Sequence record: PP892525.1 | Origin: Escherichia phage vB_EcoS_I14 | DNA length: 64,000 nucleotides | Direction: 5' to 3' (one strand) | In this document: positions 18,676 through 54,619 of the stretch, piece by piece | Layout: each line of letters opens with the position of its first letter | How positions within the stretch are numbered: the first letter of the stretch is position 1 | Notes under the pieces: model-generated | What the model was told of the DNA's origin: nothing | Seen by the model: only the letters and a program-made list of their open reading frames with translations | The model's database searches: none | Program-made: the position numbers and the translations under genes

Positions 18676-18684
18676 TCTGCCTCC

Positions 18685-19115: not shown

Positions 19116-19622
19116 TTACACCTTAAATTGTTGTAGGGCTTTACACATTTCAAGATCTGGACTAAATTCTAACATATAGCTAACAGCTTTTAAATCTTGA
19201 AGATTTATTCCAGTCCTACCGTTGACTATAACCGTTGGATACTGATACATCATAGCACCCGCATCATCAAGCACACACCAATGTTTGAGCTTATGCTTTT
19301 CAACGAAGCGAAGAACAGAATTGCCCCTAGATAATCCACCCCCAGTAAAATCCGTTGTACCAAGAAAACGATCGATAAGGCCTAATCCGGTCATAATCTG
19401 AACGTTCTCCATCTCATTTCTGACAGAGAACCAAGATGATACTCCAACAATCATTATCGGAGAAGGACGAATAAAGTCCTGAAAAGCCTTGAGAAGCGGT
19501 TTGAAAACCCAGTCACTTCCAAAGAAAATCTTTTCATTATCAGGTGCATGATGGTGGGAGATGCTCGAATTGAGCACCCCATCAATATCTAGAAAAATAA
19601 TTGGAGTATTACTTATTTCCAT
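19116..19622 (-). CDS. HAD-superfamily phosphatase-like protein (possible nucleotidase)
   Basis: 168 aa; HAD motif I IIFLDIDGVLN near the N-terminus and later VLDD. Confidence 0.6.
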   Translation of the reverse strand: MEISNTPIIFLDIDGVLNSSISHHHAPDNEKIFFGSDWVFKPLLKAFQDFIRPSPIMIVGVSSWFSVRNEMENVQIMTGLGLIDRFLGTTDFTGGGLSRGNSVLRFVEKHKLKHWCVLDDAGAMMYQYPTVIVNGRTGINLQDLKAVSYMLEFSPDLEMCKALQQFKV

Positions 19623-19818
19623 TTTTGTTCCTTTCTAAGAACGTATCATACTCAACCGTATCAACATATATAACACCATAGTCATCGGATTTATAGTCCA
19701 TTTCCCACAGCTCACAGCGATAGCACCAACTACCATCTGCCCATACAAATATATCATCGGGATGTGTATAAACAGATTTAACTATGGACATATCTGTTTC
19801 CCTTGCTTCTCGACACAT
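19609..19818 (-). CDS. hypothetical small protein
   Basis: 69 aa ORF; true start may be the internal Met. Confidence 0.35.
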   Translation of the reverse strand: MCREARETDMSIVKSVYTHPDDIFVWADGSWCYRCELWEMDYKSDDYGVIYVDTVEYDTFLERNKNGNK

Positions 19819-20614
19819 AAGGTCTACCCTCTAAATGAGCTTCTACACGAGCAATAAAATCAGGGTCACTAAAAGCATCTACCGCACCTTTACTCCAGTA
19901 AGGGATACCGCGTTCTTCCAACTGGTACATCTCACTACGAGTCATACCTTGATAGCCCGGTTCTGCTGCGAGGGCACTATCATAGTAGTTAACAACCATA
20001 AGTTTCGCAGCAGTCAAATTAAGAACAGGAAATAATTCCCAGTAGAAGTTAATTACTTGGTTAGAGCAACCAACCACAATGATCATATCTTGACTGGTAA
20101 TACCATCAAAAACATTATACATTTCTGCGTATGCAGGAGCATGTTCTCCAAAGAAGATTACATTAGGTTTAACCCATTTATAATCATCTGGATCAATAGA
20201 ATTATACCCTACATCAATAATCCGTTTATTGCTACTATTGTAGCTATCAGCTACAACAACCTCTTTTAAATATCCGTGAATGTGCAGAATGTCACTATGT
20301 GGAACGCCAGCACGCTCAATAAGGTCATCAACGTTGGTAGTCAAGTTTACTACTTGACCTGGATATTGTTTATACCATTCACCAATACGCAAATGTGCAA
20401 GATTGGGTTCAACAGTTTTTAGCTCTTCACGACGTTTGTTGTAAAACATATGGGTTTTATGGTAAAAATTACCACGAAAGGCATGAATATTACATACTTC
20501 TTCTAGATCATAATCATCCCACAATGCTTTACCACTAGCAGTATCAGTACGAAAAGCTCGTACACCACTTTCAACACTCAAACCTGCACCGCTAATAATA
20601 ATTACCCTACGCAT
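19778..20614 (-). CDS. SIR2-family (sirtuin-like) NAD-binding protein lacking the zinc ribbon
   Basis: 278 aa; sirtuin motifs GAGLSVESGVRAFR, TTNVDDLIERAG, HIHGY, PNVIFFGE, VVGCSN; no CxxC pairs. Confidence 0.65.
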   Translation of the reverse strand: MRRVIIISGAGLSVESGVRAFRTDTASGKALWDDYDLEEVCNIHAFRGNFYHKTHMFYNKRREELKTVEPNLAHLRIGEWYKQYPGQVVNLTTNVDDLIERAGVPHSDILHIHGYLKEVVVADSYNSSNKRIIDVGYNSIDPDDYKWVKPNVIFFGEHAPAYAEMYNVFDGITSQDMIIVVGCSNQVINFYWELFPVLNLTAAKLMVVNYYDSALAAEPGYQGMTRSEMYQLEERGIPYWSKGAVDAFSDPDFIARVEAHLEGRPYVSRSKGNRYVHS

Positions 20615-30614: not shown

Positions 30615-30893
30615 ATGCGAATTTATAACTCAAATTCACTAGGATTTAAACCATTGAGAAAACGTGCACAATCACCTCGTCAAATAAGAAAGGCTAATAT
30701 TGGTGAGCCAGAAACACGTCTTCCACCTCCTCCAGAGCAACGTTTAGTTTATCTGGATGAAGAATTAGCTGAACGCGAAAGAAAAGCTCAGGAAGAGATT
30801 GAGCGTAAGAAAATGTGTACTGCTCCGGCGTATAATAAAGGAGCGTATCAATATGTCTCAGATGCTGAACAAGCTAAGATGGTTGGTAGATAA
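30615..30893 (+). CDS. hypothetical protein
   Basis: 92 aa ORF. Confidence 0.5.
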   Translation: MRIYNSNSLGFKPLRKRAQSPRQIRKANIGEPETRLPPPPEQRLVYLDEELAERERKAQEEIERKKMCTAPAYNKGAYQYVSDAEQAKMVGR

Positions 30894-30911
30894 TTTTTAA
30901 AAAAAATTCAT

Positions 30912-30940
30912 TTGCTAAACGCTTCAAATTCTCGTATAAT
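30912..30940 (+). promoter_or_regulatory. sigma70-type early promoter
   Basis: TTGCTA-17bp-TATAAT, then CATAAATTGATAAAC. Confidence 0.7.
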
Positions 30941-30978
30941 ATACTTCATAAATTGATAAACAAAAAGGAAAATAAATA

Positions 30979-31494
30979 ATGGCTAAGCAGAAAAACGCAA
31001 AAACTCAAGCAGCTCCGGCAGTTAAAACTTTCCCACAGACCGAGGCTAATCGCAAAGCTCGTCTGGAACGCCACCTGCGTAAGCATCCTACCGATGCTCA
31101 GGCTGCGCAAGCACTGAATAGTCCGGCTCCGATTCGTCAGAAGCCTAAAGCTAAAAATGCCACCCGTAAATCCTACAAAATGGTTATGTATGTAGAAAAT
31201 TACGGCCACAAATCTGTCTCAGTTTCCCTGAGCTTTAACGCTGGGGCTGAATTGTTCTCTCGTAATGGTATGTCCATGAAAGACTATGAGAAAGCAGTTA
31301 ACCAGAAGCGTAAACCAACAGCAGATGTATTACGTGATACTCGTGGACAGTTTGGTTCTGTTAAGCCAAATATCTTTGGCGTAGAGTATAGTAAAGATAA
31401 TGTTCGTGCTCTGTGTTACGGTGTAGGCATTAAGTTCACTGGTGATTCTGCTCGTAAATCTGCTAAACCAGCTCGCAAGCGTAAAGCGAAGTAA
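30979..31494 (+). CDS. hypothetical basic protein
   Basis: 171 aa, Lys/Arg-rich. Confidence 0.5.
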   Translation: MAKQKNAKTQAAPAVKTFPQTEANRKARLERHLRKHPTDAQAAQALNSPAPIRQKPKAKNATRKSYKMVMYVENYGHKSVSVSLSFNAGAELFSRNGMSMKDYEKAVNQKRKPTADVLRDTRGQFGSVKPNIFGVEYSKDNVRALCYGVGIKFTGDSARKSAKPARKRKAK

Positions 31495-31558
31495 TAGATA
31501 AATAGGGGCAGAAGCCCCTACAATCTACTAATTCTCTAACTAATCAAGGATATTTTTT

Positions 31559-31774
31559 ATGTTCTCTAAGAAACCACGTTCTGTTACTGAAATCGTTGCT
31601 TCCTTTACCACTATCACTGATGAGCTTCAAGCTCGTATTGAGGCTGATCAAAAAATTGCTGCGGATATTCAGAAACAGCAGGAAGAACTCGCTTTAAAGT
31701 TGGCTGAAACCAACAAGAGTGAAAAATCTGCCCAAACTATTATGGAAAATATCTTTAAACTGCTGGGCAAGTGA
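31559..31774 (+). CDS. hypothetical protein
   Basis: 71 aa ORF flanked by hairpins. Confidence 0.45.
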   Translation: MFSKKPRSVTEIVASFTTITDELQARIEADQKIAADIQKQQEELALKLAETNKSEKSAQTIMENIFKLLGK

Positions 31775-31783
31775 TTTAAATCA

Positions 31784-31808
31784 GGGGGCGAAAGCCCCTC
31801 TTATTTGG
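31784..31808 (+). terminator. intrinsic terminator
   Basis: AGGGGC-GAAA-GCCCCT hairpin followed by CTTATTT. Confidence 0.6.
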
Positions 31809-31815
31809 AGAAACT

Positions 31816-32052
31816 ATGCGTAATTTTGTAGCAAAGAATGATTTTAACCGTGCTAGCACTCATAAGTCCGCTAGAGATTATACACGACTTTCTAGTCATG
31901 AGGTAATGGATACCTGTTATGAAGAGCTGGAAGGTAGCTGGAATGAATGGCCCGGCCTCTCTATGGAAGAGAACTGGGATGTCAGTGAGGATATGCTTCC
32001 TGGTTTTAAAGACCCCAAGAAGTGGGAGTCTATTAAAGAGACAGCTCTTTAA
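31816..32052 (+). CDS. hypothetical protein
   Basis: 78 aa ORF. Confidence 0.4.
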   Translation: MRNFVAKNDFNRASTHKSARDYTRLSSHEVMDTCYEELEGSWNEWPGLSMEENWDVSEDMLPGFKDPKKWESIKETAL

Positions 32053-32080
32053 TAGTTTTCTACACAATAAAGGATAAGTT

Positions 32081-32782
32081 ATGAAAGTAAAACCATTTGG
32101 TATGCTAGATATTGAATCTCTAGGAACTCCAGGAGATTGTGGTACTACTCATATCGCAATGCCTTCTTTCGCTTTTGTGGCTATGCATGGAATTGATAAA
32201 GACCCTGATCTAGTATTTGTTACCTTAGATGTACAAGATCAACTTAATTCTGGTGCCAAAGTTACAGCATCTACTCTAGCATTCTGGATGGATCAGGCTA
32301 AACATAGCCCGTCTGCTATCCACATTATGGAAGCTATGAATGAGCGTAATCCAAAACTGATTGCCTTCCAAAATGGTAAACATCATTGCACTAATAAACT
32401 TGGCTCTAACCATGCTGCCTTCTCTATGGCTCAAAATATTATGGAGTTGGCTCTAGGTGAAAATGCTTTGTACTATGGCAATGGCCCAGAGTTTGATATG
32501 ACTATCTACTCTGCAAACACTTTCCATGCTGGAACCAATGAAGAAATAGTTCCGTGGAAATTCTGGAACTTGGGTAATGTTAGATCTCTTCGTAATCTCT
32601 GGATGCAAACTGGCTATAGTTATAAAGCTCTAGAAACCGAAGGTATTAGCTGGGCAATAGCTAAAATGGAGAAGATGGACACCATTCGTTATGGGATCTA
32701 TCCGGTTAAGCACGACCCAGCATTCGATGCCCTAGTTGAGAGCTATTGTGTTGCAGCTATGATCGAAAAAATGAAAATTTGA
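32081..32782 (+). CDS. DEDDh-type 3'-5' exonuclease (DnaQ/RNase T-like)
   Basis: 233 aa; Exo I MLDIESLG, Exo II YGNGPEFDM, Exo III HDPAFDA. Confidence 0.6.
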   Translation: MKVKPFGMLDIESLGTPGDCGTTHIAMPSFAFVAMHGIDKDPDLVFVTLDVQDQLNSGAKVTASTLAFWMDQAKHSPSAIHIMEAMNERNPKLIAFQNGKHHCTNKLGSNHAAFSMAQNIMELALGENALYYGNGPEFDMTIYSANTFHAGTNEEIVPWKFWNLGNVRSLRNLWMQTGYSYKALETEGISWAIAKMEKMDTIRYGIYPVKHDPAFDALVESYCVAAMIEKMKI

Positions 32783-32783
32783 T

Positions 32784-32812
32784 TTGCTTCCGGCTCCAAA
32801 ATTCTGTATAAT
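32784..32812 (+). promoter_or_regulatory. sigma70-type early promoter
   Basis: TTGCTT-17bp-TATAAT; -35 region overlaps the 3' end of CDS 32081-32782. Confidence 0.7.
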
Positions 32813-32852
32813 ATATTCATAAATTTGAGAAAACAATAAAAGGAAAACAAAT

Positions 32853-33035
32853 ATGCCAGTATCTAAAAATGTTCGTAAAAATGGTAAGAAAGCTACTCGT
32901 AATCTGGGTATCCGTCGTATGGCTGAACGTCAATCAGGTATCCAGAAAATCTTTGATCTGCTAAATCGTGCTAATCCTAAAATTGATAACAGTAACGATA
33001 CTGTTCTGCGCACCCTGCTGGCAATTGGTCTGTAA
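32853..33035 (+). CDS. hypothetical small basic protein
   Basis: 60 aa ORF. Confidence 0.4.
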   Translation: MPVSKNVRKNGKKATRNLGIRRMAERQSGIQKIFDLLNRANPKIDNSNDTVLRTLLAIGL

Positions 33036-33088
33036 TAGACCAAATTTAAACAAATTCAAATCTCAAACTTCATATAAGGAAGCAAATA

Positions 33089-33727
33089 ATGACTACTCGT
33101 ATCTCTAAAACTCGCGCTCTGGCAACTATCAAATCTCTGGAAGCTAAAATCCGTAAAGCTACTGAACAACAGCTTCTGATCGCTGTTGGTGAAGGTAAGG
33201 ATAAAAACCAGGTTGTAGTTGGCGCTGCAATCGAAGTAGATGCCCTGTCTACTCGTATTAAAACTGATTTCCAATCTCTGCTGGATATGATGTCTCAGCG
33301 TGATCGTATTAAATCTGCTCTGATTAAGAGCAATGCAGAAACAATCGTTGAGATTGGTTCTCGTAAGATGACTGTTGCGGAAGCAATTGAAGCTAAGCGT
33401 TCTATGGAGCTTAAAGCTCAGCTGCTGGCTAACATGCGTAAGCAGTTCCATGCCGCTACGGTTAAGTTTAATACGCAGAAAGCACAGTTTGATGCTAAAT
33501 ATGAGCGTTTGCAGGATAGCATGGCTACCCGCGATAAGAAAACTTCCGAAGATGAAGTTAAAATGCAGCTCAATCTGCTGGAACTCAAGAATACTCCATT
33601 CTTGATTGATCCGCTGGAACTGGAGAAGCTGATTAAGCAGCATGACGAGGAATACCAGGACTTTGCAACAAATGTTGACTTTGTTCTATCCGAGTCTAAC
33701 GCCTCTACCTTCATTGAAGTAGAGTAA
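33089..33727 (+). CDS. hypothetical protein, predicted coiled coil
   Basis: 212 aa ORF. Confidence 0.5.
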   Translation: MTTRISKTRALATIKSLEAKIRKATEQQLLIAVGEGKDKNQVVVGAAIEVDALSTRIKTDFQSLLDMMSQRDRIKSALIKSNAETIVEIGSRKMTVAEAIEAKRSMELKAQLLANMRKQFHAATVKFNTQKAQFDAKYERLQDSMATRDKKTSEDEVKMQLNLLELKNTPFLIDPLELEKLIKQHDEEYQDFATNVDFVLSESNASTFIEVE

Positions 33728-34110
33728 TAATTTAAAAGCTAGTAAATCGGTAGACGAAAGCCCAAGCATCTTACCTCGCAGCAGCGGTTGAAATACGAGG
33801 TTAAATAAGACCGCTGACCATACTATAAAGTATAATCTATTGGAGATTATGTTTATTACACCAGCCTTTTAAGCTGACACGTAAGAACAAAGCGTCGTTG
33901 ATATTACCGACACAACTTCAAAGATCAACATTTAAGTATGAAAGCTGAAAAGTTTAAAGAACTCAAACTTCTAAACTTCTAAAGCTAAAAGATGCAAAGT
34001 ATTCGTTGATGATTCAAACCCTAGATCAAAGGTACATGGCTCATAAGATATGGCCTGTGGCGCCTCTAGGCTGTTTATCGGTTTACTAGTTTCACAATTT
34101 AAAAATGTAT

Positions 34111-34139
34111 TTGCTAATTTACTAAGTTATCTGTATAAT
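34111..34139 (+). promoter_or_regulatory. sigma70-type early promoter
   Basis: TTGCTA-17bp-TATAAT, then TTAAATTGATGAAACGAGG. Confidence 0.7.
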
Positions 34140-34169
34140 ATATTTTTAAATTGATGAAACGAGGCTATT

Positions 34170-34487
34170 ATGACTTTTCATATTTTGATTGATGATGTGC
34201 GTAATCTTCACGGAATGGACATTATCATTCGAACCCCAGAAGCCGCTGTAGAGTTTCTGAATAAAACTGATACCACCGGCCATTTCGTTTATATGGATAA
34301 TGACTTGGCTGTAGATGGTATGGAAGGTTATCAAATTCTTCGTTTACTCTTAGAATTTGGGCAGAGACCAAAGAAAGTGGTACTAGTAACCTCGAACCCA
34401 GTAGCTAAGCAAAATATGCGTAATGATTTGCTTGACTTAGGGTATAAAGAAAATCCCAATCGTGTTGAATATGATTGGCAGGAGTAA
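34170..34487 (+). CDS. receiver (REC/CheY-like) domain protein, stand-alone
   Basis: 105 aa; ILIDD, FVYMDNDL, VVLVTSN and PVAK fit the DD-D-T-K receiver pattern. Confidence 0.45.
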   Translation: MTFHILIDDVRNLHGMDIIIRTPEAAVEFLNKTDTTGHFVYMDNDLAVDGMEGYQILRLLLEFGQRPKKVVLVTSNPVAKQNMRNDLLDLGYKENPNRVEYDWQE

Positions 34488-34492
34488 AAAGA

Positions 34493-34942
34493 ATGAAGGC
34501 AGCTTTGCTTTTAGTAGCTGCCCTTACCTTCAGCTTTAGTAGTCAGGCATCGCACGATGCAAAAGAAATAGATTGCATTGCTAAAAATATCTATTTCGAG
34601 AGTCGTGGTGAGGGCATAAAGGGAATGACGGCAATTGCACATGTTACTAAAAACCGTGTAAACTCCGGTAAATTCCCAGATTCCTACTGTAAAGTAGTAT
34701 ATCAGTCTAACCAGTTCTCTTGGGTATCTAAGAGACCAAAAGTTGATAAAACTGATGAGGCTTGGCAAACCGCTAAGAATTTAGCTAGAGTGATATACTA
34801 CGTTGATTTACCACAAGATCCTACACATGGAGCACTATACTTCCATAGTGGTAAAGATAAACCTTACTGGACAAAGAAATTTAAGAAAACAACTAAGATT
34901 AAGGGACATACGTTTTATAAACCTGTTGTCACTAAAACTTAA
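34493..34942 (+). CDS. secreted cell-wall hydrolase (SleB/Hydrolase_2-like)
   Basis: Signal peptide MKAALLLVAALTFSFSSQA; motifs IYFESRGE, AIAHVTKNRV, CKVVYQSNQFSW; the track ORF starts at 34475. Confidence 0.65.
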   Translation: MKAALLLVAALTFSFSSQASHDAKEIDCIAKNIYFESRGEGIKGMTAIAHVTKNRVNSGKFPDSYCKVVYQSNQFSWVSKRPKVDKTDEAWQTAKNLARVIYYVDLPQDPTHGALYFHSGKDKPYWTKKFKKTTKIKGHTFYKPVVTKT

Positions 34943-34950
34943 AAATTTAC

Positions 34951-34979
34951 TTGCTTAAATACTTAAATTTCTGTATAAT
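34951..34979 (+). promoter_or_regulatory. sigma70-type early promoter
   Basis: TTGCTT-17bp-TATAAT, then CATAAATTAATGAGAGG. Confidence 0.7.
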
Positions 34980-35010
34980 ACTTCCATAAATTAATGAGAG
35001 GAAGCGAAAT

Positions 35011-35181
35011 ATGAAATCAGTTGTAATTATTGGTGTTAACACTCGCGGTATTCGTACTACGAAAACTGTTAAAACTTCTAACGTTGCTGAGATCACTACG
35101 AACCCTAAAAAGTTTGATTTCGCCAAAGTCTCAGCAGTTATGACAGAACAATCTTTTAACCAAGCATTGGGGATGAAATAA
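35011..35181 (+). CDS. hypothetical small protein
   Basis: 56 codons from ATG 35011; not in the ORF track. Confidence 0.35.
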   Translation: MKSVVIIGVNTRGIRTTKTVKTSNVAEITTNPKKFDFAKVSAVMTEQSFNQALGMK

Positions 35182-35615
35182 TGGGTACGAATATGATTCG
35201 TGTGCTGCGAGAATTAATTGAAAAAGCTCGCAAACACGGTGATACTGTGTCAGTCAAGCACCTTAGTACGATTTTAGGTGACTTACAACGAATTGATAAA
35301 GATTGCGTATCTAGACTAGAGTTTACTAACTGGATTAAATCACAGTTCAAAGCAATTGAGAGTACAATGACTTCTGCTGCAAAAGCAAATATCGAGTATA
35401 CTCCAGATGCTGAATATCTCGACTTGTTAGCAGGTCTAGAGTATGAATATGCTCTAGAGCAGTTAACTGAAGTTCAGATTCGTGAGTATTTTGCAGAACT
35501 GGTTAAATTAAACCCAGGTATTACCAAAGCTCTATTAATGAAAACTATTAAGGCAGAATTTCCTGGACGTTATGACGGTAAAACAACTGCTTTGATTGCT
35601 AGTGAATTTTTCTAA
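35181..35615 (+). CDS. hypothetical protein
   Basis: 144 aa ORF. Confidence 0.5.
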   Translation: MGTNMIRVLRELIEKARKHGDTVSVKHLSTILGDLQRIDKDCVSRLEFTNWIKSQFKAIESTMTSAAKANIEYTPDAEYLDLLAGLEYEYALEQLTEVQIREYFAELVKLNPGITKALLMKTIKAEFPGRYDGKTTALIASEFF

Positions 35616-35623
35616 AAATTCAC

Positions 35624-35652
35624 TTGCTAAATGCTTATAAATTCTGTATAAT
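35624..35652 (+). promoter_or_regulatory. sigma70-type promoter at the start of the tRNA/ncRNA region
   Basis: TTGCTA-17bp-TATAAT; no ORF follows for about 750 bp. Confidence 0.7.
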
Positions 35653-35718
35653 ATATTCATAAATTAGAGAGTAATTTCTATCTAATTTATAAATAGTGGG
35701 GTGTGGAAATCACTTATG

Positions 35719-35790
35719 TAGTAACACTGCCGTCCTAGTATAATTGGTATTATCAAGCCGTAACTGGTGGAAGATGTAGGTTCGAATCCT
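35719..35790 (+). tRNA. tRNA-like element, anticodon arm not foldable
   Basis: T-arm GTAGG-TTCGAAT-CCTAC and acceptor GCCGTCC/GGTCGGT with one mismatch; no convincing D or anticodon stem; no CCA. Confidence 0.3.
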
Positions 35791-36293
35791 ACGGTCGGTA
35801 AGAACTGGATAACTGATGCTTTTAACGTAAAAGCTTCCGAGGTTAGTTGCGCACTGCCTAAACCACGCGGTAGTTGGTTCCAGACTAACCAACCAGTCTG
35901 CTGAATAGTTTTATTACGATTTAACTATGTCCAGGCTAAAGAAGAACTTTAGAAGGTATTTCTAGGATAGTGAAGTTCTTTCTCCATATCGGAGTAGTTT
36001 TTCAAGCTATCCACAAAGTGGGAAATGCTGACATGAGAGATGTCACTAATGGTGCACAATAGCACAGGTAATTCGCGATAACTCCTGTTGAGTAGCAGCA
36101 AAAGGCGGGAAGTCATGACCCCAAGCCTAACCGAGTCCTCAATATACCGCAGGACATAACCACTAAGTCACCCTGACTTAAACTGGAAAATAATAGACGT
36201 TACTGTATTTTGTCTTGAAATACTTAATGAGTGAGACTTATGATTCTCCCGGTATCGTCTGTATTTTTAAGAGTTTTTACGAGAGTTCTTAAA

Positions 36294-36368
36294 AATACTT
36301 AAACGGGGTGTAGTCTAATGGAGAGGCAGGAGTCTTCTAAATTCCTTTATGCAGGTTCGAATCCTGTC
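36294..36368 (+). tRNA. tRNA-Arg(TCT), tentative
   Basis: Acceptor CGGGGTG/CACCTCG; anticodon stem GGAGT/ATTCC, loop CTTCTAA; T-arm GCAGG-TTCGAAT-CCTGT; CCA encoded; short D-arm. Confidence 0.55.
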
Positions 36369-36412
36369 ACCTCGGCCAATTTTATTAACTGTAACTAAAA
36401 CAAAGGAAACAT

Positions 36413-37360
36413 ATGTTTAATACTAAAAATATGAAAGAATTGACTTCTGAGCAGAAAGTAATTCGTACTATTAAACGTTGGGGTATTGGTGCTATAGTTG
36501 GTTTAGCAGGTTTAATCCTAGCTTTTAATTCGTATACCATTGTTTCTGATGGTACGGTTAAAACCCAAACATTCCTGGGTAAAGTAGACCCTAATCCAGT
36601 ATTACCTGGTTTCCATCTTGTAAACCCGTTTGCATCTTTCGATACTTTTAGTACAAAAGATATTGCTGTAAAATTAGATAAACTTCAGGTTCCTAGCCAG
36701 GATAAGTTTAAATCCACTGTTGACCTGACTGTTATGTTGCAGTTTGATGGTTCTAAGGCACCAATTAACCGTATTAACGCAGGTACTCAGGATCAAGCGT
36801 TAGACAAGTATGTAACTGAAAAATTACTGTCTACTATTCGTGAGTTTGGTAAGTCTGTACCTAAAGCACAAGATTTGTTTGATGCTAAAATTCAGGCTCA
36901 ATTGCAAACCGCAATTCAACAAGAAGTTGAAGAGTATGCACGCCCATATGGTTACACAGTTAAGCAGGTATTCCTTCAGGATATTACTCTACCACCAGTA
37001 ATCATGGAACAGGTACAGAATACCAAAGTTCGTGAAGAGCAAGTTAATGCTGCGAAAGCTGAATTGGCTCGTGTTGAACAGGAAGCACAGCAAAAAGTTA
37101 AACAAGCAGAAGCAGATCGTGAAGCTCGCAACAACCAAGCTATTGCTAATGAACGTGACGCAGATGCTAAACTGTACGCAGCTAAGAAAGAAGCTGAAGC
37201 TAACGCCGCACTGCAACGTACCATTACTCCTGAGATGATTCGTTGGAAACAACTGGAAGTTGAGATGATTCGTGCTCAGAAATATCAAGGTGGTGTACCG
37301 CAGACTGTGGTTGGCACTGGCTATGATGGCCAAATGATTATGGATATGCGTAATAAATAA
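36413..37360 (+). CDS. SPFH/band-7 (prohibitin/HflKC-like) membrane protein
   Basis: 315 aa; N-terminal TM segment, SPFH-like core, Ala/Glu/Gln-rich coiled coil. Confidence 0.7.
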   Translation: MFNTKNMKELTSEQKVIRTIKRWGIGAIVGLAGLILAFNSYTIVSDGTVKTQTFLGKVDPNPVLPGFHLVNPFASFDTFSTKDIAVKLDKLQVPSQDKFKSTVDLTVMLQFDGSKAPINRINAGTQDQALDKYVTEKLLSTIREFGKSVPKAQDLFDAKIQAQLQTAIQQEVEEYARPYGYTVKQVFLQDITLPPVIMEQVQNTKVREEQVNAAKAELARVEQEAQQKVKQAEADREARNNQAIANERDADAKLYAAKKEAEANAALQRTITPEMIRWKQLEVEMIRAQKYQGGVPQTVVGTGYDGQMIMDMRNK

Positions 37361-37383
37361 TACCCGCACGTAACATCTGAAGT

Positions 37384-37419
37384 GAGCCCTGCGTTCCCTG
37401 GAGAGCGCAGGGCTTTTCT
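37384..37419 (+). terminator. intrinsic terminator after the SPFH gene
   Basis: GAGCCCTGCG...CGCAGGGCT hairpin followed by TTTT. Confidence 0.7.
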
Positions 37420-37456
37420 ATATAATGTATTTGTAAATCTAACTAGGAGATCAAAT

Positions 37457-37975
37457 ATGAATGTTGATGAGCTAATACAGCACCTCTTATCTAGGGGATT
37501 TGATACAGATAAATATCATTGCTGGTTAAGTCCGGAAGGATGGCTAACAGTCCCGTTGTATGACTTCTCTGGGATGTTGAGAGGCTATCAGACTTATAAT
37601 CCTTCTGCTCCCAAAAGGCAGGGTAAGTGCCCATTTGAAGCTAAATATTTTACCCATTCTACTACACAGTGTGTATGGGGGCTAGAAACTCTCAATGGAG
37701 ATGAAAAAGTAGTATTGATTGCTGAATCTGTATTTAAGGCAGTTGCGTTACATAACGCTGGTTATCCCGCCCTAGCAATGTTGGGTTCTTCTCCGGGAAA
37801 AGCATTATTAAAGCAACTGAAATTACTACCTTTTAAATTGATAGCTATTGGTGACAATGATCCCGATGGTGAAAAATTTGCTAGAAAATTAAACGGCTTT
37901 GTTTCTCCCGTAGATGTGGATGAGATGTCTACCGAAAACTTGAAAAATTTTCTTGCTATGAAGCTAAATTTCTAA
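37457..37975 (+). CDS. hypothetical protein with Toprim-like motifs
   Basis: ATG 37457 after AGGAGA; VVLIAESVF and IAIGDNDPDGEKFA; the track ORF starts at 37382 inside the terminator. Confidence 0.45.
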   Translation: MNVDELIQHLLSRGFDTDKYHCWLSPEGWLTVPLYDFSGMLRGYQTYNPSAPKRQGKCPFEAKYFTHSTTQCVWGLETLNGDEKVVLIAESVFKAVALHNAGYPALAMLGSSPGKALLKQLKLLPFKLIAIGDNDPDGEKFARKLNGFVSPVDVDEMSTENLKNFLAMKLNF

Positions 37976-37981
37976 TATAAT
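37953..37981 (+). promoter_or_regulatory. sigma70-type promoter upstream of tRNA-Ser
   Basis: TTGCTA-17bp-TATAAT; -35 lies in the 3' end of CDS 37457-37975. Confidence 0.65.
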
Positions 37982-37994
37982 ATATCTTATAAAT

Positions 37995-38085
37995 TCGGAA
38001 GAATAGCATAACGGTATTGCAGCAGATTGCTAATCTGTCGGTTTGAAATATAGCCTTGTGGGTTCGATTCCCACTTCTTCCGCCA
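37995..38085 (+). tRNA. tRNA-Ser(GCT), type II
   Basis: Acceptor GGAAGAA/TTCTTCC; anticodon loop TTGCTAA; long variable arm; T-loop GTTCGATTC; CCA encoded. Confidence 0.7.
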
Positions 38086-38091
38086 GATTTT

Positions 38092-38169
38092 GGTTCTCAA
38101 GCTCATATGGTATGAGCACCCGGCTCATAACCGGAAGGTACGTAGGTTCGAATCCTCGGGGAGCCACCA
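38092..38169 (+). tRNA. tRNA with CAT anticodon (Met or Ile2), tentative
   Basis: Acceptor GGTTCTC/GGGAGCC; D-stem GCTC/GAGC; anticodon loop CTCATAA; T-stem has two mismatches; CCA encoded. Confidence 0.5.
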
Positions 38170-38385
38170 ATTAAATAGAGGTCACAAATGGATCTATATA
38201 TATAGTTTATGTTGTGTTTATCCAAGATAGAGAATACCCGGATGAATATAAAAAAGGATATAGGTTAGCCAGAGCTACTTCTGAAGCCCAAGCTATGGAT
38301 AAAGTGGCAGATTATATGATTACAGTAGAAAACGTACACTATATCGACTACCTTGAAGCCTCAAAAGTAATTGACTAAACTACAT

Positions 38386-38462
38386 GGGGGTGTAATCGAA
38401 TTGGCATAGGTACTGGACTTAAAATTCAGGTTTTGTGGGTTCGAATCCCACCACCCCTACCA
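38386..38462 (+). tRNA. tRNA, anticodon tentatively TAA (Leu)
   Basis: Acceptor GGGGGTG/CACCCCT; T-arm GTGGG-TTCGAAT-CCCAC; CCA encoded; D-arm unclear. Confidence 0.5.
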
Positions 38463-38477
38463 AATTAAGGAAATAAG

Positions 38478-38645
38478 ATGTATAGACATCCACCTCCGCC
38501 AACACGTCGTTCTAGAGAAGTTATCCTCATGGAATTAACTAAAAACTTCAAGGCAACTCTTGAAGATAGAGATCTAGGCACGGATGAAGACATTGATTTT
38601 ATTTGTAGACTACTAAAGATGAAACTGGAGAAACAACATGGCTAA
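38478..38645 (+). CDS. hypothetical small protein
   Basis: 55 codons from ATG 38478; not in the ORF track. Confidence 0.3.
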   Translation: MYRHPPPPTRRSREVILMELTKNFKATLEDRDLGTDEDIDFICRLLKMKLEKQHG

Positions 38646-38844
38646 TCCTGAAATTACCGCACAACGTTTCATGCTTAAAGGCATGATTGCTGAAGCAGGT
38701 ATGACTCAAGAGGTTGCAGACTTTCATAAGCAAATTCTTGATATTATAACTCTAGCTAAAGAGACTGGAGAAAAAGAGCACGCAGCAGCAATTATGGCTA
38801 TATCTCTTATTAGTCTAGACTTGGCTGAAGAATCTGGAGTTTAG
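38638..38844 (+). CDS. hypothetical protein
   Basis: 68 aa ORF. Confidence 0.4.
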   Translation: MANPEITAQRFMLKGMIAEAGMTQEVADFHKQILDIITLAKETGEKEHAAAIMAISLISLDLAEESGV

Positions 38845-38874
38845 CTCCTCCAAACAGAATTTTTAAAAATGTAC

Positions 38875-38904
38875 TTGCCTTTTGCTTTAAATTTCTGATA
38901 TAAT
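38875..38904 (+). promoter_or_regulatory. sigma70-type early promoter
   Basis: TTGCCT-18bp-TATAAT, then TATAAATTGATGAAGGAG. Confidence 0.65.
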
Positions 38905-38934
38905 AGTTATATAAATTGATGAAGGAGTTAACGA

Positions 38935-39210
38935 ATGCAAAATCGTGTTGTAGCAGCTGGTATTGAAAGTGCAATCTGTAAATCCTGGGAAGGCTGGGAA
39001 GGTGAGATTGAATGGCTTTATTTCTACGATGTAGAACTTCTTCCAGAAGTTAAAGCTAAATGTGTTGAAGCTGGCATGGCTCCAGATGCAAAAGCTGATA
39101 TTGATATTTCAATGTCTGAACTTAAAGGTCGTGTAATTACTGTTGGTGATGAGGGCGAAGAAGTTTTCGAACTTCCGTTCTCCTTAACTGTCACTCCTAA
39201 GTTCGACTAA
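38935..39210 (+). CDS. hypothetical protein
   Basis: 91 aa ORF. Confidence 0.5.
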   Translation: MQNRVVAAGIESAICKSWEGWEGEIEWLYFYDVELLPEVKAKCVEAGMAPDAKADIDISMSELKGRVITVGDEGEEVFELPFSLTVTPKFD

Positions 39211-39246
39211 CTAATACAGCACTGAGCAAGTTCTTTAAAATTTGAC

Positions 39247-39275
39247 TTGCTCAGTGCCTTAAAACTTGGTATAAT
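39247..39275 (+). promoter_or_regulatory. sigma70-type promoter upstream of tRNA-Tyr, overlapped by a 12-bp inverted repeat
   Basis: TTGCTC-17bp-TATAAT; perfect inverted repeat GCACTGAGCAAG/CTTGCTCAGTGC (39220-39257) spans the -35. Confidence 0.6.
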
Positions 39276-39338
39276 AGTTATCTAATTTGGAAACATATTT
39301 AAAAGTGTTTAAACTAATATTTGAATACTTTTAAATAT

Positions 39339-39426
39339 GGGCGTTTATTCCGTAAGTGGTAGCGGAGGGGATTGTAAATCCCTGGTCATTGCGACTCGAG
39401 TGGTTCGACTCCATTAACGCCCACCA
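39339..39426 (+). tRNA. tRNA-Tyr(GTA), type II
   Basis: Acceptor GGGCGTT/AACGCCC; anticodon stem GGGGA/TCCCT, loop TTGTAAA; long variable arm; CCA encoded. Confidence 0.7.
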
Positions 39427-39443
39427 AATTAAAGGTAAAGGAT

Positions 39444-39935
39444 ATGTATATTGATAGGATAATTCAAGAAGCTGCAAATAGGGGTATTATACAGTTAGGT
39501 TCACCCGCTGATATAAACAAAGATCTAATATTAGAGAGCCTCACATTTGGTACAGCTAACTTTGGTCGCGATAGTAATCGTCGGTATAGTTTGAAGTTAT
39601 CTGCTCTATCTTTTATCAAGTATAACAAAAGTATTGGAGAAAAATCCAGCTGTGGTTTTATTTATGCAATAACTAACCCAGCTTGGGATAACTATGTAAA
39701 AATTGGTATGTCTTCTGATCCTAAAACAAGATTAGGAAATTACCAGACTTACTCTCCTTTACGTGATTATAAGTTAATACATTGGTCATTTTGGTTTAAT
39801 GCTAGAGAAGCTGAGAAAATGCTTCATAATAGCTTTCCCGAACGGCTTAATGAATGGGTAGTATTAGATAGAAGTGTAGATGAAATACTTTCTGAGTTTA
39901 ATAATCTATCCAATAAACAATTTAAGTCCTGTTAG
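39444..39935 (+). CDS. T5orf172/GIY-YIG-like domain protein (homing-endonuclease-like)
   Basis: 163 aa; motif GFIYAITNPAWDNYVKIGMSSDPKTRLGNYQT; lies between tRNA genes. Confidence 0.55.
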   Translation: MYIDRIIQEAANRGIIQLGSPADINKDLILESLTFGTANFGRDSNRRYSLKLSALSFIKYNKSIGEKSSCGFIYAITNPAWDNYVKIGMSSDPKTRLGNYQTYSPLRDYKLIHWSFWFNAREAEKMLHNSFPERLNEWVVLDRSVDEILSEFNNLSNKQFKSC

Positions 39936-53552: not shown

Positions 53553-54209
53553 TTGGAAAAGTTCTTACAATTATTAACGGTACTGCTCCAAGAAGCGAAA
53601 GATCCAGCATCGCTTCTTAAACGTCTGCTAACTATCTTAGTTGCTGTCATTATTTTCTTATTTGTTAGTAATACTAGCGAGGTGATGTCATTCTTAAAGA
53701 CTTTCTCCACGTCTGCGGTTCTACAGGATGTTCAAACTCAAAGGATAGATAACTTTCCTAATGTAGCTAGAGAAAAGAGCATGGTACTCTTTTCTCAAAC
53801 GGGTGCGGATGCTGTTTTTGTAGTCAAGTATAAACCCGATGCCATTAATGATTATTCTAACATTATTGCATGGGAAAGCAATGCGCAATTAGATAGGGCT
53901 GACTTGGCCGATAAAGCAGTAAATAAAACGTCTGAGCTATACAGACGTCACTTAGAGGGCTTTAACTACGCATCGGATTTAAGTGTAAGAGTAAATAAAT
54001 ATACGGGGTTAAATATACCTGCGTTTAAGAACGTTACTTTTAATTACATATACACTTGTCCATATTTCAATCTAAACAATATCTATGCTGGATATATTGG
54101 TATTGCTTGGAAAGATAATCCTGTAGATGCAGCCGATTCTGAGAAATTTAAGGAATATTTAACAAAGCTCTGTTCTCCACAACAGAGATCTTTAGGTAGA
54201 TCAATATGA
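53553..54209 (+). CDS. holin-like membrane protein
   Basis: 218 aa; TM segment LLTILVAVIIFLFV; immediately upstream of endolysin; apparent TTG start after AGGAGG. Confidence 0.6.
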   Translation: MEKFLQLLTVLLQEAKDPASLLKRLLTILVAVIIFLFVSNTSEVMSFLKTFSTSAVLQDVQTQRIDNFPNVAREKSMVLFSQTGADAVFVVKYKPDAINDYSNIIAWESNAQLDRADLADKAVNKTSELYRRHLEGFNYASDLSVRVNKYTGLNIPAFKNVTFNYIYTCPYFNLNNIYAGYIGIAWKDNPVDAADSEKFKEYLTKLCSPQQRSLGRSI

Positions 54210-54619
54210 GTTTTAAATTTGGTAAAAATAGCGAAAAACAATTAGCTACCGTTAAGCCAGAGCTACAAAAAGTAGCTCGTAGAGCTTTAGAATTATCTCC
54301 ATATGATTTCACGATCGTACAGGGTATTCGTACAGTAGCACAAAGTGCCCAGAATATTGCTAATGGTACTTCATTTTTAAAAGATCCTAGTAAAAGCAAG
54401 CATATTACTGGGGATGCTCTTGATTTTGCTCCATACATTAATGGCAAGATTGATTGGAATGACTTAGAAGCATTTTGGGCAGTTAAAAAGGCTTTTGAAC
54501 AAGCAGGTAAAGAACTAGGCATTAAACTTCGTTTTGGTGCTGATTGGAATGCTTCGGGAGATTATCACGATGAAATAAAACGTGGTACCTATGATGGCGG
54601 TCATGTCGAACTAGTTTAA
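54206..54619 (+). CDS. endolysin, L-alanyl-D-glutamate peptidase type
   Basis: 137 aa, the size of T5 endolysin; His/Asp-rich C-terminus; followed by a strong terminator. Confidence 0.8.
   Translation: MSFKFGKNSEKQLATVKPELQKVARRALELSPYDFTIVQGIRTVAQSAQNIANGTSFLKDPSKSKHITGDALDFAPYINGKIDWNDLEAFWAVKKAFEQAGKELGIKLRFGADWNASGDYHDEIKRGTYDGGHVELV

What the first reader, a model, noticed from the sequence alone, without database searches (positions are those of the whole stretch)
34170..34942. Stand-alone receiver-like protein next to a secreted SleB-like cell-wall hydrolase
ORF 34170-34487 shows the spacing of acidic, Thr/Ser and Lys residues of CheY-like receiver domains (ILIDD, YMDNDL, LVTSN, PVAK) but has no output domain. 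The next gene encodes a signal-peptide-bearing hydrolase with SleB/Hydrolase_2-like motifs, distinct from the endolysin at 54206-54619. A phage-encoded receiver mimic could interfere with host two-component signalling, and a secreted second muralytic enzyme suggests a role other than end-of-cycle lysis.
Basis: partly seen in the sequence, partly recalled or inferred. Interest (0 to 1): 0.55.

Follow-up and report, generated by a model that had tools for sequence, protein, structure and literature searches.

The report
T5 phage cREC and SleB-like genes
These are two already-catalogued early genes of a T5-like coliphage: a tiny receiver-fold protein of the phage "cREC" family (a predicted phosphate-ester enzyme, not a signalling mimic) and an exported SleB-type cell-wall cutter. 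Both are real, but they are ordinary for this phage group and neither function has been tested experimentally.

Summary
ORF 34170-34487 (105 aa) and ORF 34493-34942 (149 aa) are real, conserved genes that appear to share one early sigma-70-type promoter.

The window is a Tequintavirus, 98.7% identical to phages Es2/SCF and 93.6% to T5. The genes are the orthologues of T5.084 and T5.083.

**ORF1.**
- It keeps the acidic pocket: D8, D9, D43/D45 and T74.
- It belongs to Pfam cREC_REC (56.8 bits against a cutoff of 27), not Response_reg (12.5 against 30.2).
- It lacks helices alpha1 and alpha5 and the conserved Lys.
- No histidine kinase lies next to it in any sampled locus.
- The cREC family was described in 2021-22 as a predicted, still untested, cyclic-phosphate phosphoesterase of phages.

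**ORF2.**
- It is a Hydrolase_2 catalytic domain, and its only solved structural relatives are SleB 4F55/4FET.
- It has an invariant Glu36, a Sec-type leader and an invariant Cys pair.
- It is separate from the T-holin/M15 endolysin cassette at 53553-54619.

**The pair.** The adjacency is synteny confined to T5-like phages (Markadamsvirinae). It breaks in My1, in IME260 and in KVP40-like phages. Public records already annotate both genes this way.

**Verdict.** The two-component-mimic idea is not supported, and the role of the exported hydrolase remains open. Already known; low interest.

The parts
34111..34139 (+). Early sigma-70-type promoter (TTGCTA-17-TATAAT) likely driving the two-gene unit
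   Evidence: Consensus scan gives 10/12 matches. This is the position of the annotated T5 early promoter upstream of T5.084.
34170..34487 (+). cREC-family minimal receiver-fold protein (105 aa), orthologue of T5.084; predicted cyclic-phosphate phosphoesterase
34493..34942 (+). Exported SleB/Hydrolase_2-type cell-wall hydrolase (149 aa), a probable lytic transglycosylase; orthologue of T5.083
   Evidence: Pfam PF07486 E 2.2e-25. PDB 4F55/4FET match by sequence and by fold. E36, C28 and C66 are invariant in 27 homologues.
34493..34549 (+). Predicted Sec signal peptide (residues 1-19, MKAALLLVAALTFSFSSQA | SHD)
   Evidence: Heuristic analysis: Lys in the n-region, a 15-residue uncharged core, small residues at -3/-1, and no lipobox. 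The same architecture occurs in orthologues from four Demerecviridae genera and in distant homologues. SignalP was not available.
34951..34979 (+). Next early promoter (TTGCTT-17-TATAAT), which ends the two-gene unit and starts the DUF7616/YqeY-like unit
   Evidence: Read directly from the sequence. It corresponds to T5 promoter P-D/E 33. No terminator-like site was found in 33700-35700.
53553..54619 (+). Context only: canonical lysis cassette, T-type holin (53553-54209) plus M15 peptidase endolysin (54206-54619)
   Evidence: Pfam Phage_holin_T E 2.8e-112. Peptidase_M15_4 E 1.1e-4, 23.2 bits, just under its 25-bit cutoff.
19116..20614 (-). Context only: HAD_SAK_2 phosphatase (19116-19622) and SIR2 (19778-20614), predicted NAD-dependent RNA-end repair genes that could act in the same pathway as cREC
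   Evidence: Pfam PF18143 E 7.3e-20 and PF02146 E 8.2e-25. The T5-like SP15 sirtuin+HAD neighbourhood is described in PMC9503650.

Best explanation
These are two functionally independent early genes of a T5-like (Tequintavirus) phage that appear to be co-transcribed from one early promoter.

Gene 1:
- It encodes a 105-aa member of the phage cREC family. The fold is a stripped-down receiver that has lost helices alpha1 and alpha5 and the conserved Lys.
- It keeps the acidic pair after beta1 (D8, D9), an invariant DxD at the end of beta3 (D43, D45) and Thr/Ser after beta4 (T74).
- It adds family-specific invariant residues R11 and N76.
- The most likely mechanism is inferred, not shown. The protein would be a small Asp-nucleophile phosphoesterase using receiver/HAD-type chemistry. 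The acidic pair would hold Mg2+. One Asp of the DxD would attack a cyclic phosphodiester (a 2',3'-cyclic phosphate RNA end, or an ADP-ribose-derived cyclic phosphate), and the other Asp would act as general acid/base as in HAD enzymes. T74, N76 and R11 would hold the phosphoryl group.
- Its role would be to clean up cleaved tRNA/RNA ends or to destroy NAD-derived products or signals during infection. It could work with the phage's Sir2 and HAD_SAK_2 genes and with host ligases.

Gene 2:
- It encodes a Sec-exported, single-domain SleB-type lytic transglycosylase with catalytic Glu36 and a probable C28-C66 disulfide.
- It would reach the periplasm independently of the holin, from early in infection, and cut or remodel host peptidoglycan.
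- It would be an accessory to the T-holin/M15 endolysin cassette, not a replacement for it.

The adjacency of the two genes is lineage-specific synteny, not a functional module.
For: Identity of the phage and genes:
- The region is 98.7% identical to phages Es2/SCF and 93.6% to T5. The genes correspond to T5.084/T5.083 with annotated early promoters on both sides.

cREC membership and structure:
- PF20274 scores 56.8 bits against a cutoff of 27; Response_reg scores only 12.5 against 30.2.
- AF2 pLDDT is 94.5, with no helix between beta1 (4-7) and beta2 (18-20) and none after beta5.
- The nearest viral structures are other cREC proteins.

Conserved residues:
- Invariant D8, R11, D43, D45, N76; near-invariant D9; T/S at position 74; no conserved Lys.
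- The hhalign register puts T74 at CheY T87 and N95-P96 at CheY K109-P110.

Family properties:
- 431 cluster representatives, mostly stand-alone proteins of about 100 aa.
- The family is described as never linked to kinases, linked instead to RNA ligases and NAD/ADPr enzymes, and experimentally uncharacterised.
- In my own sample of loci there were no kinases. T4 Rnl1 was 1 kb away in L014, and Metallophos and SprT-like genes recurred.
- SIR2 and HAD_SAK_2 are present in the window.

Hydrolase:
- Hydrolase_2 E 2.2e-25.
- YFESRGE aligns to the YGESRGE motif of SleB 4F55/4FET.
- AF2 pLDDT 92.1, and Foldseek hits only SleB catalytic domains.
- E36, C28 and C66 are invariant in 27 homologues down to 30% identity, and 26 of the 27 start with a hydrophobic leader.
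- Leader heuristics fit a Sec signal peptide.
- SleB's catalytic glutamate is essential for its lytic transglycosylase activity (PMC12331253).
- The separate lysis cassette lies at 53553-54619.

Independence of the two genes:
- In My1 they are five genes apart.
- IME260 has the hydrolase without an adjacent cREC.
- KVP40-like and metagenomic cREC loci have no Hydrolase_2.
- Distant Hydrolase_2 loci have no cREC.
Against: - No member of the cREC family has been assayed, so the phosphoesterase activity and its substrate are predictions from gene context and from receiver chemistry.
- In T5-like phages the cREC gene is not next to a ligase, Nudix, 2H or sirtuin gene. Sir2 and HAD_SAK_2 are 14 kb away on the other strand, and no phage RNA ligase was found in the regions I examined.
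- Proximity to tRNA genes is not specific: 4 of 10 cREC loci have it, but so do 2 of 3 hydrolase-only loci.
- I could not read model coordinates. It is therefore unsettled whether D43 or D45 occupies the phospho-acceptor position, and whether R11/N76 and the two Cys are placed as I assume.
- The pair does stay adjacent in T5-like phages down to 50% cREC identity (L016), so a lineage-specific functional link cannot be excluded.
- Signal-peptide cleavage was judged by simple rules, not by a trained predictor or by experiment.
- Bacillus SleB needs muramic-delta-lactam, which E. coli peptidoglycan lacks, so the phage enzyme's bond specificity is inferred only from the conserved catalytic Glu.
Confidence: 0.6

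Rival explanations
1. One reading: ORF1 is a CheY-like receiver mimic. It would accept phosphoryl groups from, or dock onto, host histidine kinases, Hpt proteins or phosphatases, and so perturb host two-component signalling.
Against: - Response_reg scores 12.5 bits against a 30.2 cutoff, while cREC_REC scores 56.8 against 27.
- Only 10 residues separate beta1 and beta2, so helix alpha1, the principal kinase-docking surface, is absent. Alpha5 and the conserved Lys are also absent.
- The family is reported never to co-occur with histidine kinases. None was seen in about 10 sampled loci, nor in the 43 kb of annotated T5 around the gene.
- Homologues occur in phages of very different hosts with the same invariant residues. 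That pattern fits a conserved small-molecule or RNA substrate better than host-specific kinase surfaces.
Confidence: 0.05
2. ORF1 is not an enzyme. It would be a small binding protein that uses the receiver pocket as a sponge or sensor for a phosphorylated or cyclic nucleotide ligand, or as a protein-protein adaptor via the sheet face left bare by loss of alpha1/alpha5.
For: The protein is very small and stand-alone. One face of the sheet lacks its two helices. Phage sponges for immune nucleotides are a known strategy (established knowledge). The pocket lacks the Lys that receivers use in catalysis.
Against: Invariance of four acidic residues plus R11 and N76 across sequences as low as 33% identical is the pattern of a catalytic metal/phosphoryl site. 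Reported fusions to Nudix and linkage to ligases and phosphoesterases fit an enzyme working in a pathway.
Confidence: 0.15
3. The two genes form a functional module. For example, the receiver-fold protein might regulate, chaperone or activate the hydrolase, or process a product of cell-wall cleavage.
For: They share a 5-nt intergenic gap and one promoter. The adjacency is kept in Tequintavirus, in Pantoea phage AAS21 and in a metagenomic T5-like phage with only 50% cREC identity.
Against: - The proteins are predicted to be in different compartments: one cytoplasmic with no leader, the other exported.
- My1 has both genes, five genes apart.
- IME260 has the hydrolase alone at the syntenic site.
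- Five distinct non-T5-like cREC loci (KVP40-like Vibrio phages L004/L006 counted once, plus L011, L013, L014, L015; L017 carries an unrelated glucosaminidase) lack Hydrolase_2, and three distant Hydrolase_2 loci lack cREC.
Confidence: 0.06
4. The SleB-like protein is a principal lysis enzyme (for example a signal-anchor-release type endolysin), or a virion enzyme that opens the wall at entry, not an accessory periplasmic enzyme.
For: PHROG and many GenBank records call it 'endolysin'. It has an N-terminal hydrophobic segment, as SAR endolysins do.
Against: - It lies 19 kb from the holin, which already has its own adjacent endolysin.
- The uncharged core is only 11-15 residues and is followed by a small -3/-1 site, which is typical of a cleaved signal peptide and too short for a membrane span.
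- It sits in an early transcription unit among early genes, not among structural genes.
- Distant homologues also sit among early and nucleotide-metabolism genes.
- T5's tail protein Pb2 is credited with wall digestion at entry (my own knowledge, not checked here).
Confidence: 0.1

Closest known systems
cREC (cyclic-phosphate processing Receiver) domain family, Pfam PF20274; defined by Iyer, Anantharaman, Krishnan, Burroughs & Aravind 2021 (PMC7824862) and revisited in 2022 (PMC9503650)
   Same: It scores well above the family threshold. It has the same invariant Asp residues, the same stand-alone size of about 100 aa, a phage origin and no kinase partner. Identical or near-identical proteins already carry this name in NCBI and UniRef.
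   Different: In T5-like phages the gene is not next to the NAD/ADPr or RNA-ligase genes that motivated the family's predicted function. Its immediate neighbour is a cell-wall hydrolase, and Sir2 and HAD_SAK_2 are 14 kb away. The family's activity is itself untested.
Classical two-component receiver domains (CheY, Spo0F; Pfam Response_reg PF00072)
   Different: It has no alpha1 and no alpha5. The conserved Lys is missing (N95 in its place). It has an extra invariant DxD, R11 and N76. It scores below the Pfam threshold and has no cognate kinase.
HAD-superfamily phosphatases (DxDxT motif)
   Same: This is a resemblance only. An invariant Asp-x-Asp sits at the C-terminal end of a central strand of a Rossmannoid sheet, next to an acidic metal site. 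That is the arrangement HAD enzymes use for an Asp nucleophile plus an Asp+2 general acid/base (established knowledge; the residues are).
Bacillus SleB germination-specific lytic transglycosylase (PDB 4F55, 4FET; TIGR02869) and Pfam Hydrolase_2 PF07486
   Same: The catalytic-domain fold is the same (TM 0.71-0.78 normalised to the target, 28-30% identity). The Y-x-E-S-R-G-E motif with the catalytic Glu is present.
   Different: It has only the catalytic domain and lacks SleB's N-terminal peptidoglycan-binding domain. It fails the SleB equivalog cutoff (50.3 against 236.5 bits). It has a conserved Cys pair that Bacillus SleB lacks at those columns. Its host is Gram-negative and has no muramic-delta-lactam cortex.
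Second 'endolysin' / cell wall hydrolase SleB genes noted in T5-like and other large virulent phages of Gram-negative hosts
   Same: It is the same gene. T5 strain ATCC 11303-B5 annotates it 'sleb'. AKFV33 ORF81 and Salmonella T5-like phages are discussed as having a SleB-domain enzyme far from the holin (PMC3326045, PMC11180984). tblastn finds 1278 phage records with homologues.
   Different: Nothing material differs. The protein here is 97-100% identical to the published ones.

Membership tests
cREC (PF20274) | Scores above the curated Pfam gathering threshold | tested here: met
   56.8 bits against 27, E 3.8e-15, covering profile positions 2-86 of 88. All homologues found carry PF20274.
cREC (PF20274) | Receiver-like Rossmannoid fold with conserved catalytic aspartates | tested here: met
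cREC (PF20274) | Never associated with a histidine kinase | tested here: met
   No kinase in the window's neighbourhood, in 43 kb of annotated T5, or in about 10 sampled loci. One 'sensor histidine kinase' label in IME260 has no Pfam support.
cREC (PF20274) | Gene-neighbourhood link to NAD/ADPr-processing or RNA-repair genes (ligase, Nudix, 2H, sirtuin) | tested here: inconclusive
   Not adjacent here. SIR2 and HAD_SAK_2 lie 14 kb away on the other strand. One metagenomic locus has T4 Rnl1 1 kb away. tRNA proximity is not specific.
cREC (PF20274) | Cyclic-phosphate phosphoesterase activity | not testable with these tools
   This is a prediction only. The family is stated to be experimentally uncharacterised (PMC9503650).
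Two-component receiver (Response_reg PF00072, CheY-like) | Scores above the Pfam gathering threshold | tested here: not met
   12.5 bits against 30.2, E 0.17. A PDB sequence search gives response regulators only at E 0.6-0.9.
Two-component receiver (Response_reg PF00072, CheY-like) | Complete (beta-alpha)5 fold, including alpha1 and alpha5 | tested here: not met
   The model has strands at 4-7, 18-20, 39-42, 69-72 and 92-93/100-102, and helices only at 23-32, 53-62 and 77-89. Ten residues between beta1 and beta2 cannot form alpha1.
Two-component receiver (Response_reg PF00072, CheY-like) | Acidic pair after beta1, phospho-acceptor Asp at the end of beta3, Thr/Ser after beta4 | tested here: met
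   D8/D9, D43/D45 and T74 (T or S across the family). T74 aligns to CheY T87. Which of D43 or D45 equals D57 is not resolved.
Two-component receiver (Response_reg PF00072, CheY-like) | Conserved Lys at the end of beta5 | tested here: not met
   hhalign puts N95-P96 opposite CheY K109-P110 (low probability, used for register only). K93 and K80 vary within the family.
Hydrolase_2 / SleB catalytic domain (PF07486) | Pfam threshold, fold of the solved SleB catalytic domain, and conserved catalytic Glu | tested here: met
   89.7 bits against 27. 4F55/4FET match at E 2.6e-8 by sequence and are the only significant Foldseek hits. E36 is invariant in 27 homologues.
SleB proper (TIGR02869 equivalog) | Full-length architecture with an N-terminal peptidoglycan-binding domain; equivalog cutoff | tested here: not met
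   50.3 bits against a cutoff of 236.5, with only profile positions 79-201 matched. The protein is leader plus catalytic domain only.
Sec-exported (cleaved signal peptide) protein | Positive n-region, hydrophobic core of about 10-15 residues, small residues at -3/-1, no lipobox | tested here: met
   Rule-based check on five orthologues. The leader is conserved in 26 of 27 homologues, the exception being a sequence that lacks its start codon. No trained predictor or experiment was available.
Canonical holin-linked endolysin | Encoded in the lysis cassette next to the holin | tested here: not met
   The holin and M15 endolysin are at 53553-54619. The SleB-like gene is 19 kb upstream in an early unit.

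The most novel reading that the evidence does not exclude
The cREC protein could be a new class of anti-defence or repair enzyme. It would be a minimal receiver-fold, Asp-nucleophile phosphodiesterase that opens cyclic phosphates. It would either destroy ADP-ribose- or nucleotide-derived immune messengers, or heal 2',3'-cyclic-phosphate ends left by anticodon nucleases. T5-like phages keep it at the edge of their tRNA counter-defence island. The exported SleB-type enzyme next to it would be an early-acting periplasmic wall remodeller with a role other than lysis.
Probability: 0.2. Interest if true: 0.6.

Novelty: already known. Interest (0 to 1): 0.18.

Why it matters
There is little to claim as a discovery. 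Both genes are present, at up to 100% protein identity, in hundreds of sequenced T5-like phages. Public records already annotate them as a cREC-domain protein and a cell wall hydrolase.

The value of this check is mainly corrective. The receiver-like protein should not be read as a two-component mimic, and the gene pair should not be read as a module.

Two open questions remain, both easy to address because T5 is a tractable model phage:
- The cREC family has no biochemical characterisation, despite its wide distribution (431 clusters at 50% identity in the library searched).
- Nobody appears to have tested why many large virulent phages of Gram-negative hosts export a small SleB-type enzyme early in infection, in addition to their holin-endolysin pair.

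Tried and rejected
- **The search for related loci with the cREC alignment** failed because no stretch was conserved enough. I used tblastn against phage records and exact-protein look-ups instead.
- **The afdb50 fold library** was not available.
- **PDB sequence search with the cREC profile** returned TAL-effector repeats at E about 1e-16. Every single stretch has an i-Evalue above 100, so this is an artefact of summing many weak repeat matches. Rejected.
- **Other libraries:** NCBIfam has no family for ORF1. PADLOC gives nothing for either protein. Rfam finds only tRNA-like elements in 33600-36450, and nothing in the 440-nt gap upstream of ORF1.
- **Literature:** searches for T5.083/T5.084 identifiers found nothing relevant. 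The two SleB structure papers are not held, so the identity of the catalytic Glu rests on the conserved motif, on PMC12331253 and on my recollection of Glu151 in B. anthracis.
- **Known viable T5 deletions** (30661-38625 and smaller) do not reach these genes, so they say nothing about essentiality.
- **tRNA proximity as support for an RNA-repair role** was tested and found non-specific.
- **hhalign against a single CheY sequence** gave only 7% probability. I used it for residue register only, not as evidence of homology.
- **The HNH-cREC 'fusion' P0062** was considered as a functional clue and rejected. It is most probably a homing-endonuclease insertion or a gene-call fusion.
Full report
**What the window is.**
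The region 33000-36500 is 98.7% identical to Escherichia phage Es2 and Salmonella phage SCF, and 93.6% identical to phage T5. In all, 450 phage records match it. The window carries 24 tRNA genes in the T5 arrangement. It is therefore a Tequintavirus (Demerecviridae). The two ORFs of the finding are the orthologues of T5.084 (hypothetical protein, 'similar to KVP40.0304') and T5.083 (annotated 'sleb', 'endolysin' or 'cell wall hydrolase'). One relative, vB_EcoD-Elw, already annotates them as 'cyclic-phosphate processing receiver domain-containing protein' and 'cell wall hydrolase'.

**Checking the observation.**
- ORF 34170-34487 exists (ATG, 105 aa) and contains the quoted motifs.
- The second ORF is listed mechanically from TTG 34475. 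ATG 34493 has an AGGAG 10 nt upstream and is the annotated T5 start, so the gene is 34493-34942, 149 aa.
- A promoter-like site, TTGCTA-17-TATAAT, lies at 34111-34139, at the position of an annotated T5 early promoter.
- A second site, TTGCTT-17-TATAAT, lies at 34951-34979, directly after the hydrolase. It corresponds to T5 promoter P-D/E 33.
- No terminator-like site lies between them. The two genes, 5 nt apart, thus look like one early transcription unit.
- Both proteins hit curated families far above threshold: cREC_REC 56.8 bits (cutoff 27) and Hydrolase_2 89.7 bits (cutoff 27).
It directly follows a T-type holin at 53553-54209.

**The receiver-like protein: fold.**
- An AlphaFold2 model built on 34 homologues is confident (pLDDT 94.5, pTM 0.86).
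- Its elements are strand 4-7, strand 18-20, helix 23-32, strand 39-42, helix 53-62, strand 69-72, helix 77-89, and a short hairpin 92-93/100-102.
- It is, however, a reduced receiver. Only ten residues separate beta1 and beta2, so helix alpha1 cannot exist, and there is no alpha5.

**The receiver-like protein: conserved residues.**
- In an alignment reaching 33% identity, the invariant residues are L6, D8, R11, D43, D45, G53, P67, V73 and N76.
- D9, D17, R21 and Y41 are nearly invariant, and position 74 is Thr or Ser.
- No Lys is conserved. The Lys of 'PVAK' sits in helix alpha4 and varies, and K93 varies even among T5-like phages.
- A profile alignment to CheY is of low probability, so I used it only for register. 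It pairs T74 with T87, S75 with A88, and N95-P96 with K109-P110.
- That alignment pairs D45 with D57, whereas the strand register of the model favours D43. I could not read coordinates, so this stays open.

**The receiver-like protein: family.**
- Pfam places the protein in cREC_REC, not Response_reg (12.5 bits against a cutoff of 30.2).
- A full HMMER scan of 1.84 billion cluster representatives finds 431 members at E <= 0.001. Nearly all are stand-alone proteins of about 100 aa.
- The closest viral structure models are other cREC proteins, from Pectobacterium phage CBB, Aeromonas phage 65 and Klebsiella phage Eowyn.
- The family was defined by Iyer et al. 2021. They describe a divergent receiver that is never found with histidine kinases and is linked by gene neighbourhood to NAD/ADP-ribose-processing enzymes and RNA ligases. 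They predict that it resolves cyclic phosphates: 2',3'-cyclic RNA ends or cyclic ADP-ribose phosphate (PMC7824862).
- The 2022 follow-up states that cREC remains experimentally uncharacterised. It also describes a sirtuin plus 'Swiss-army-knife' HAD phosphatase neighbourhood in T5-like phage SP15 (PMC9503650).
- I found no later paper on the family.

**Context of cREC genes.**
- In this window the immediate neighbours are a T5.085-like gene upstream and, downstream, the hydrolase, DUF7616, a YqeY-like protein, the RNAX/pseudo-tRNA region and tRNA-Arg.
- A SIR2 gene (19778-20614, minus strand) and an HAD_SAK_2 gene (19116-19622, minus strand) are present, but 14 kb away.
- In KVP40-like Vibrio phages the cREC gene sits among homing endonucleases and a DUF2828/DUF7788 gene.
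- Metagenomic phage loci show T4 Rnl1 1 kb upstream in one case, and recurrent Metallophos and SprT-like genes.
- No locus has a histidine kinase.
- tRNA genes lie within 5 kb in 4 of 10 cREC loci, but also in 2 of 3 hydrolase-only loci, so this is not specific evidence.

**What this means for the two-component idea.**
In receivers, helix alpha1 and the beta5-alpha5 region form the surface that docks onto the kinase or phosphotransferase (established knowledge from Spo0F-Spo0B and HK853-RR468 complexes). This protein has neither, lacks the conserved Lys, fails the Response_reg threshold, and belongs to a family with no kinase association. A role as a mimic of host response regulators is therefore unlikely. 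I put it at about 5%.

The conserved acidic site plus the invariant DxD, R11 and N76 fit an enzyme. The DxD recalls the nucleophile and Asp+2 pair of HAD phosphatases, whose active site is known to resemble that of CheY. This supports the published prediction of a phosphoesterase, but it is inference and not demonstration.

**The hydrolase.**
- The protein aligns over its whole catalytic domain with the solved SleB catalytic domains of B. cereus and B. anthracis (E 2.6e-8). YFESRGE lies opposite YGESRGE.
- The AF2 model (pLDDT 92.1) has those two structures as its only significant Foldseek hits. Target-normalised TM is 0.71-0.78, with 28-30% identity.
- SleB is a lytic transglycosylase whose catalytic glutamate is essential (PMC12331253).
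- E36 is invariant in 27 homologues reaching 30% identity, whereas E40 is only nearly so.
- It is not SleB proper. It fails the SleB equivalog cutoff (50.3 against 236.5 bits) and lacks the N-terminal peptidoglycan-binding domain.
- The N-terminus has a Lys, a 15-residue uncharged core, SQA|S at -3/-1 and no lipobox. The same design occurs in orthologues from four Demerecviridae genera, and 26 of the 27 homologues start with a hydrophobic leader.
- Two Cys, 38 residues apart, are invariant in all 27 homologues and are absent at those columns in Bacillus SleB. This fits a disulfide formed in the periplasm.
- The core is too short for a membrane span, which argues against a signal-anchor-release lysin.
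- Homologous Hydrolase_2 genes occur in 1278 phage records, mostly large virulent phages of Gram-negative hosts.
- Distant members of this small exported clade also sit among early and nucleotide-metabolism genes, not beside holins.
- The presence of this second muralytic gene far from the holin in T5-like phages has been noted in print, without experiments (PMC3326045, PMC11180984).

**Are the two genes a pair?**
The adjacency holds in Tequintavirus, in Pantoea phage AAS21 and in a metagenomic T5-like phage whose cREC is only 50% identical. It breaks elsewhere:
- Pectobacterium phage My1 has both genes, five genes apart.
- Klebsiella phage IME260 has the hydrolase at the syntenic site with no cREC beside it.
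- All non-T5-like cREC loci lack Hydrolase_2, and the distant Hydrolase_2 loci lack cREC.

One product is cytoplasmic and the other is exported. I conclude the pairing is inherited gene order and not a functional module.

**Verdict.**
The proposed biology, interference with two-component signalling, is not supported.

Both genes are already known and named in public records, and the exact proteins occur in many sequenced phages (155 records at >=99% identity for ORF1). The remaining interest is that neither protein has been studied experimentally. Known viable T5 deletions do not cover them.

Noticed in passing
window 19116-20614 (minus strand), plus 18283-19113: There is an HAD_SAK_2 'Swiss Army Knife RNA repair' phosphatase gene and a SIR2 gene, followed by two DUF7415 genes. 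This is the sirtuin+HAD set that Iyer et al. 2022 predict to be an NAD-dependent RNA-end repair system in T5-like phages. It lies 14 kb from the cREC gene, on the other strand.
   Followed up: partly
window 35729-35800 (+): A tRNA-like element scores 35.5 bits with Rfam tRNA (gathering score 29) but ARAGORN does not call it. It lies in the region that T5 annotates as stable 'RNAX' or a pseudo-tRNA, upstream of tRNA-Arg at 36304-36378.
   Followed up: no
window 34365-34420 (cREC residues ~66-84): The segment RPKKVVLVTSNPVAKQNMR resembles a TAL-effector repeat (LTPEQVVAIASNIGGKQALE). A profile search of PDB therefore returns TALE proteins at E about 1e-16 by summing many individually insignificant repeat matches. 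I treated this as an artefact.
   Followed up: yes
protein P0062 (273 aa, metagenomic): This protein has an HNH-type homing-endonuclease-like N-terminal half joined to a T5-like cREC C-terminal half. It is probably an endonuclease insertion or a merged gene call upstream of cREC.
   Followed up: no
loci L011, L014, L015 (metagenomic phage contigs): SprT-like metalloprotease genes occur within 5 kb of cREC in three unrelated loci, Metallophos in two, and T4 Rnl1 in one. The SprT-like co-occurrence does not appear in the passages of the two cREC papers that I read.
   Followed up: no
window 34574-34576 and 34688-34690 (Cys28 and Cys66 of the hydrolase): Exactly two cysteines, 38 residues apart, are invariant in all 27 homologues of the small exported Hydrolase_2 clade. 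Bacillus SleB lacks them at those columns. This suggests a periplasmic disulfide.
   Followed up: partly
window 35011-35615: The next transcription unit encodes a 56-aa DUF7616 protein and a 144-aa protein. PHROGs calls the latter 'tRNA amidotransferase' and AAS21 annotates its counterpart 'YqeY-like', but it has no Pfam hit. This unit stays next to the hydrolase in T5-like phages.
   Followed up: no
locus L009 6956-7333 (Klebsiella phage IME260): A 125-aa protein is annotated 'sensor histidine kinase' in the T5-like phage IME260, near the syntenic region. It has no Pfam support at E <= 0.01, so the label looks like a mis-annotation.
   Followed up: partly
window 37382-37975 versus T5 record 37954-39720: This phage lacks the T5.077-T5.079 minus-strand genes that in T5 lie between the Band_7 gene and the primase-like Toprim gene. 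Here the Band_7 gene (36413-37360) is followed directly by the Toprim ORF.
   Followed up: no
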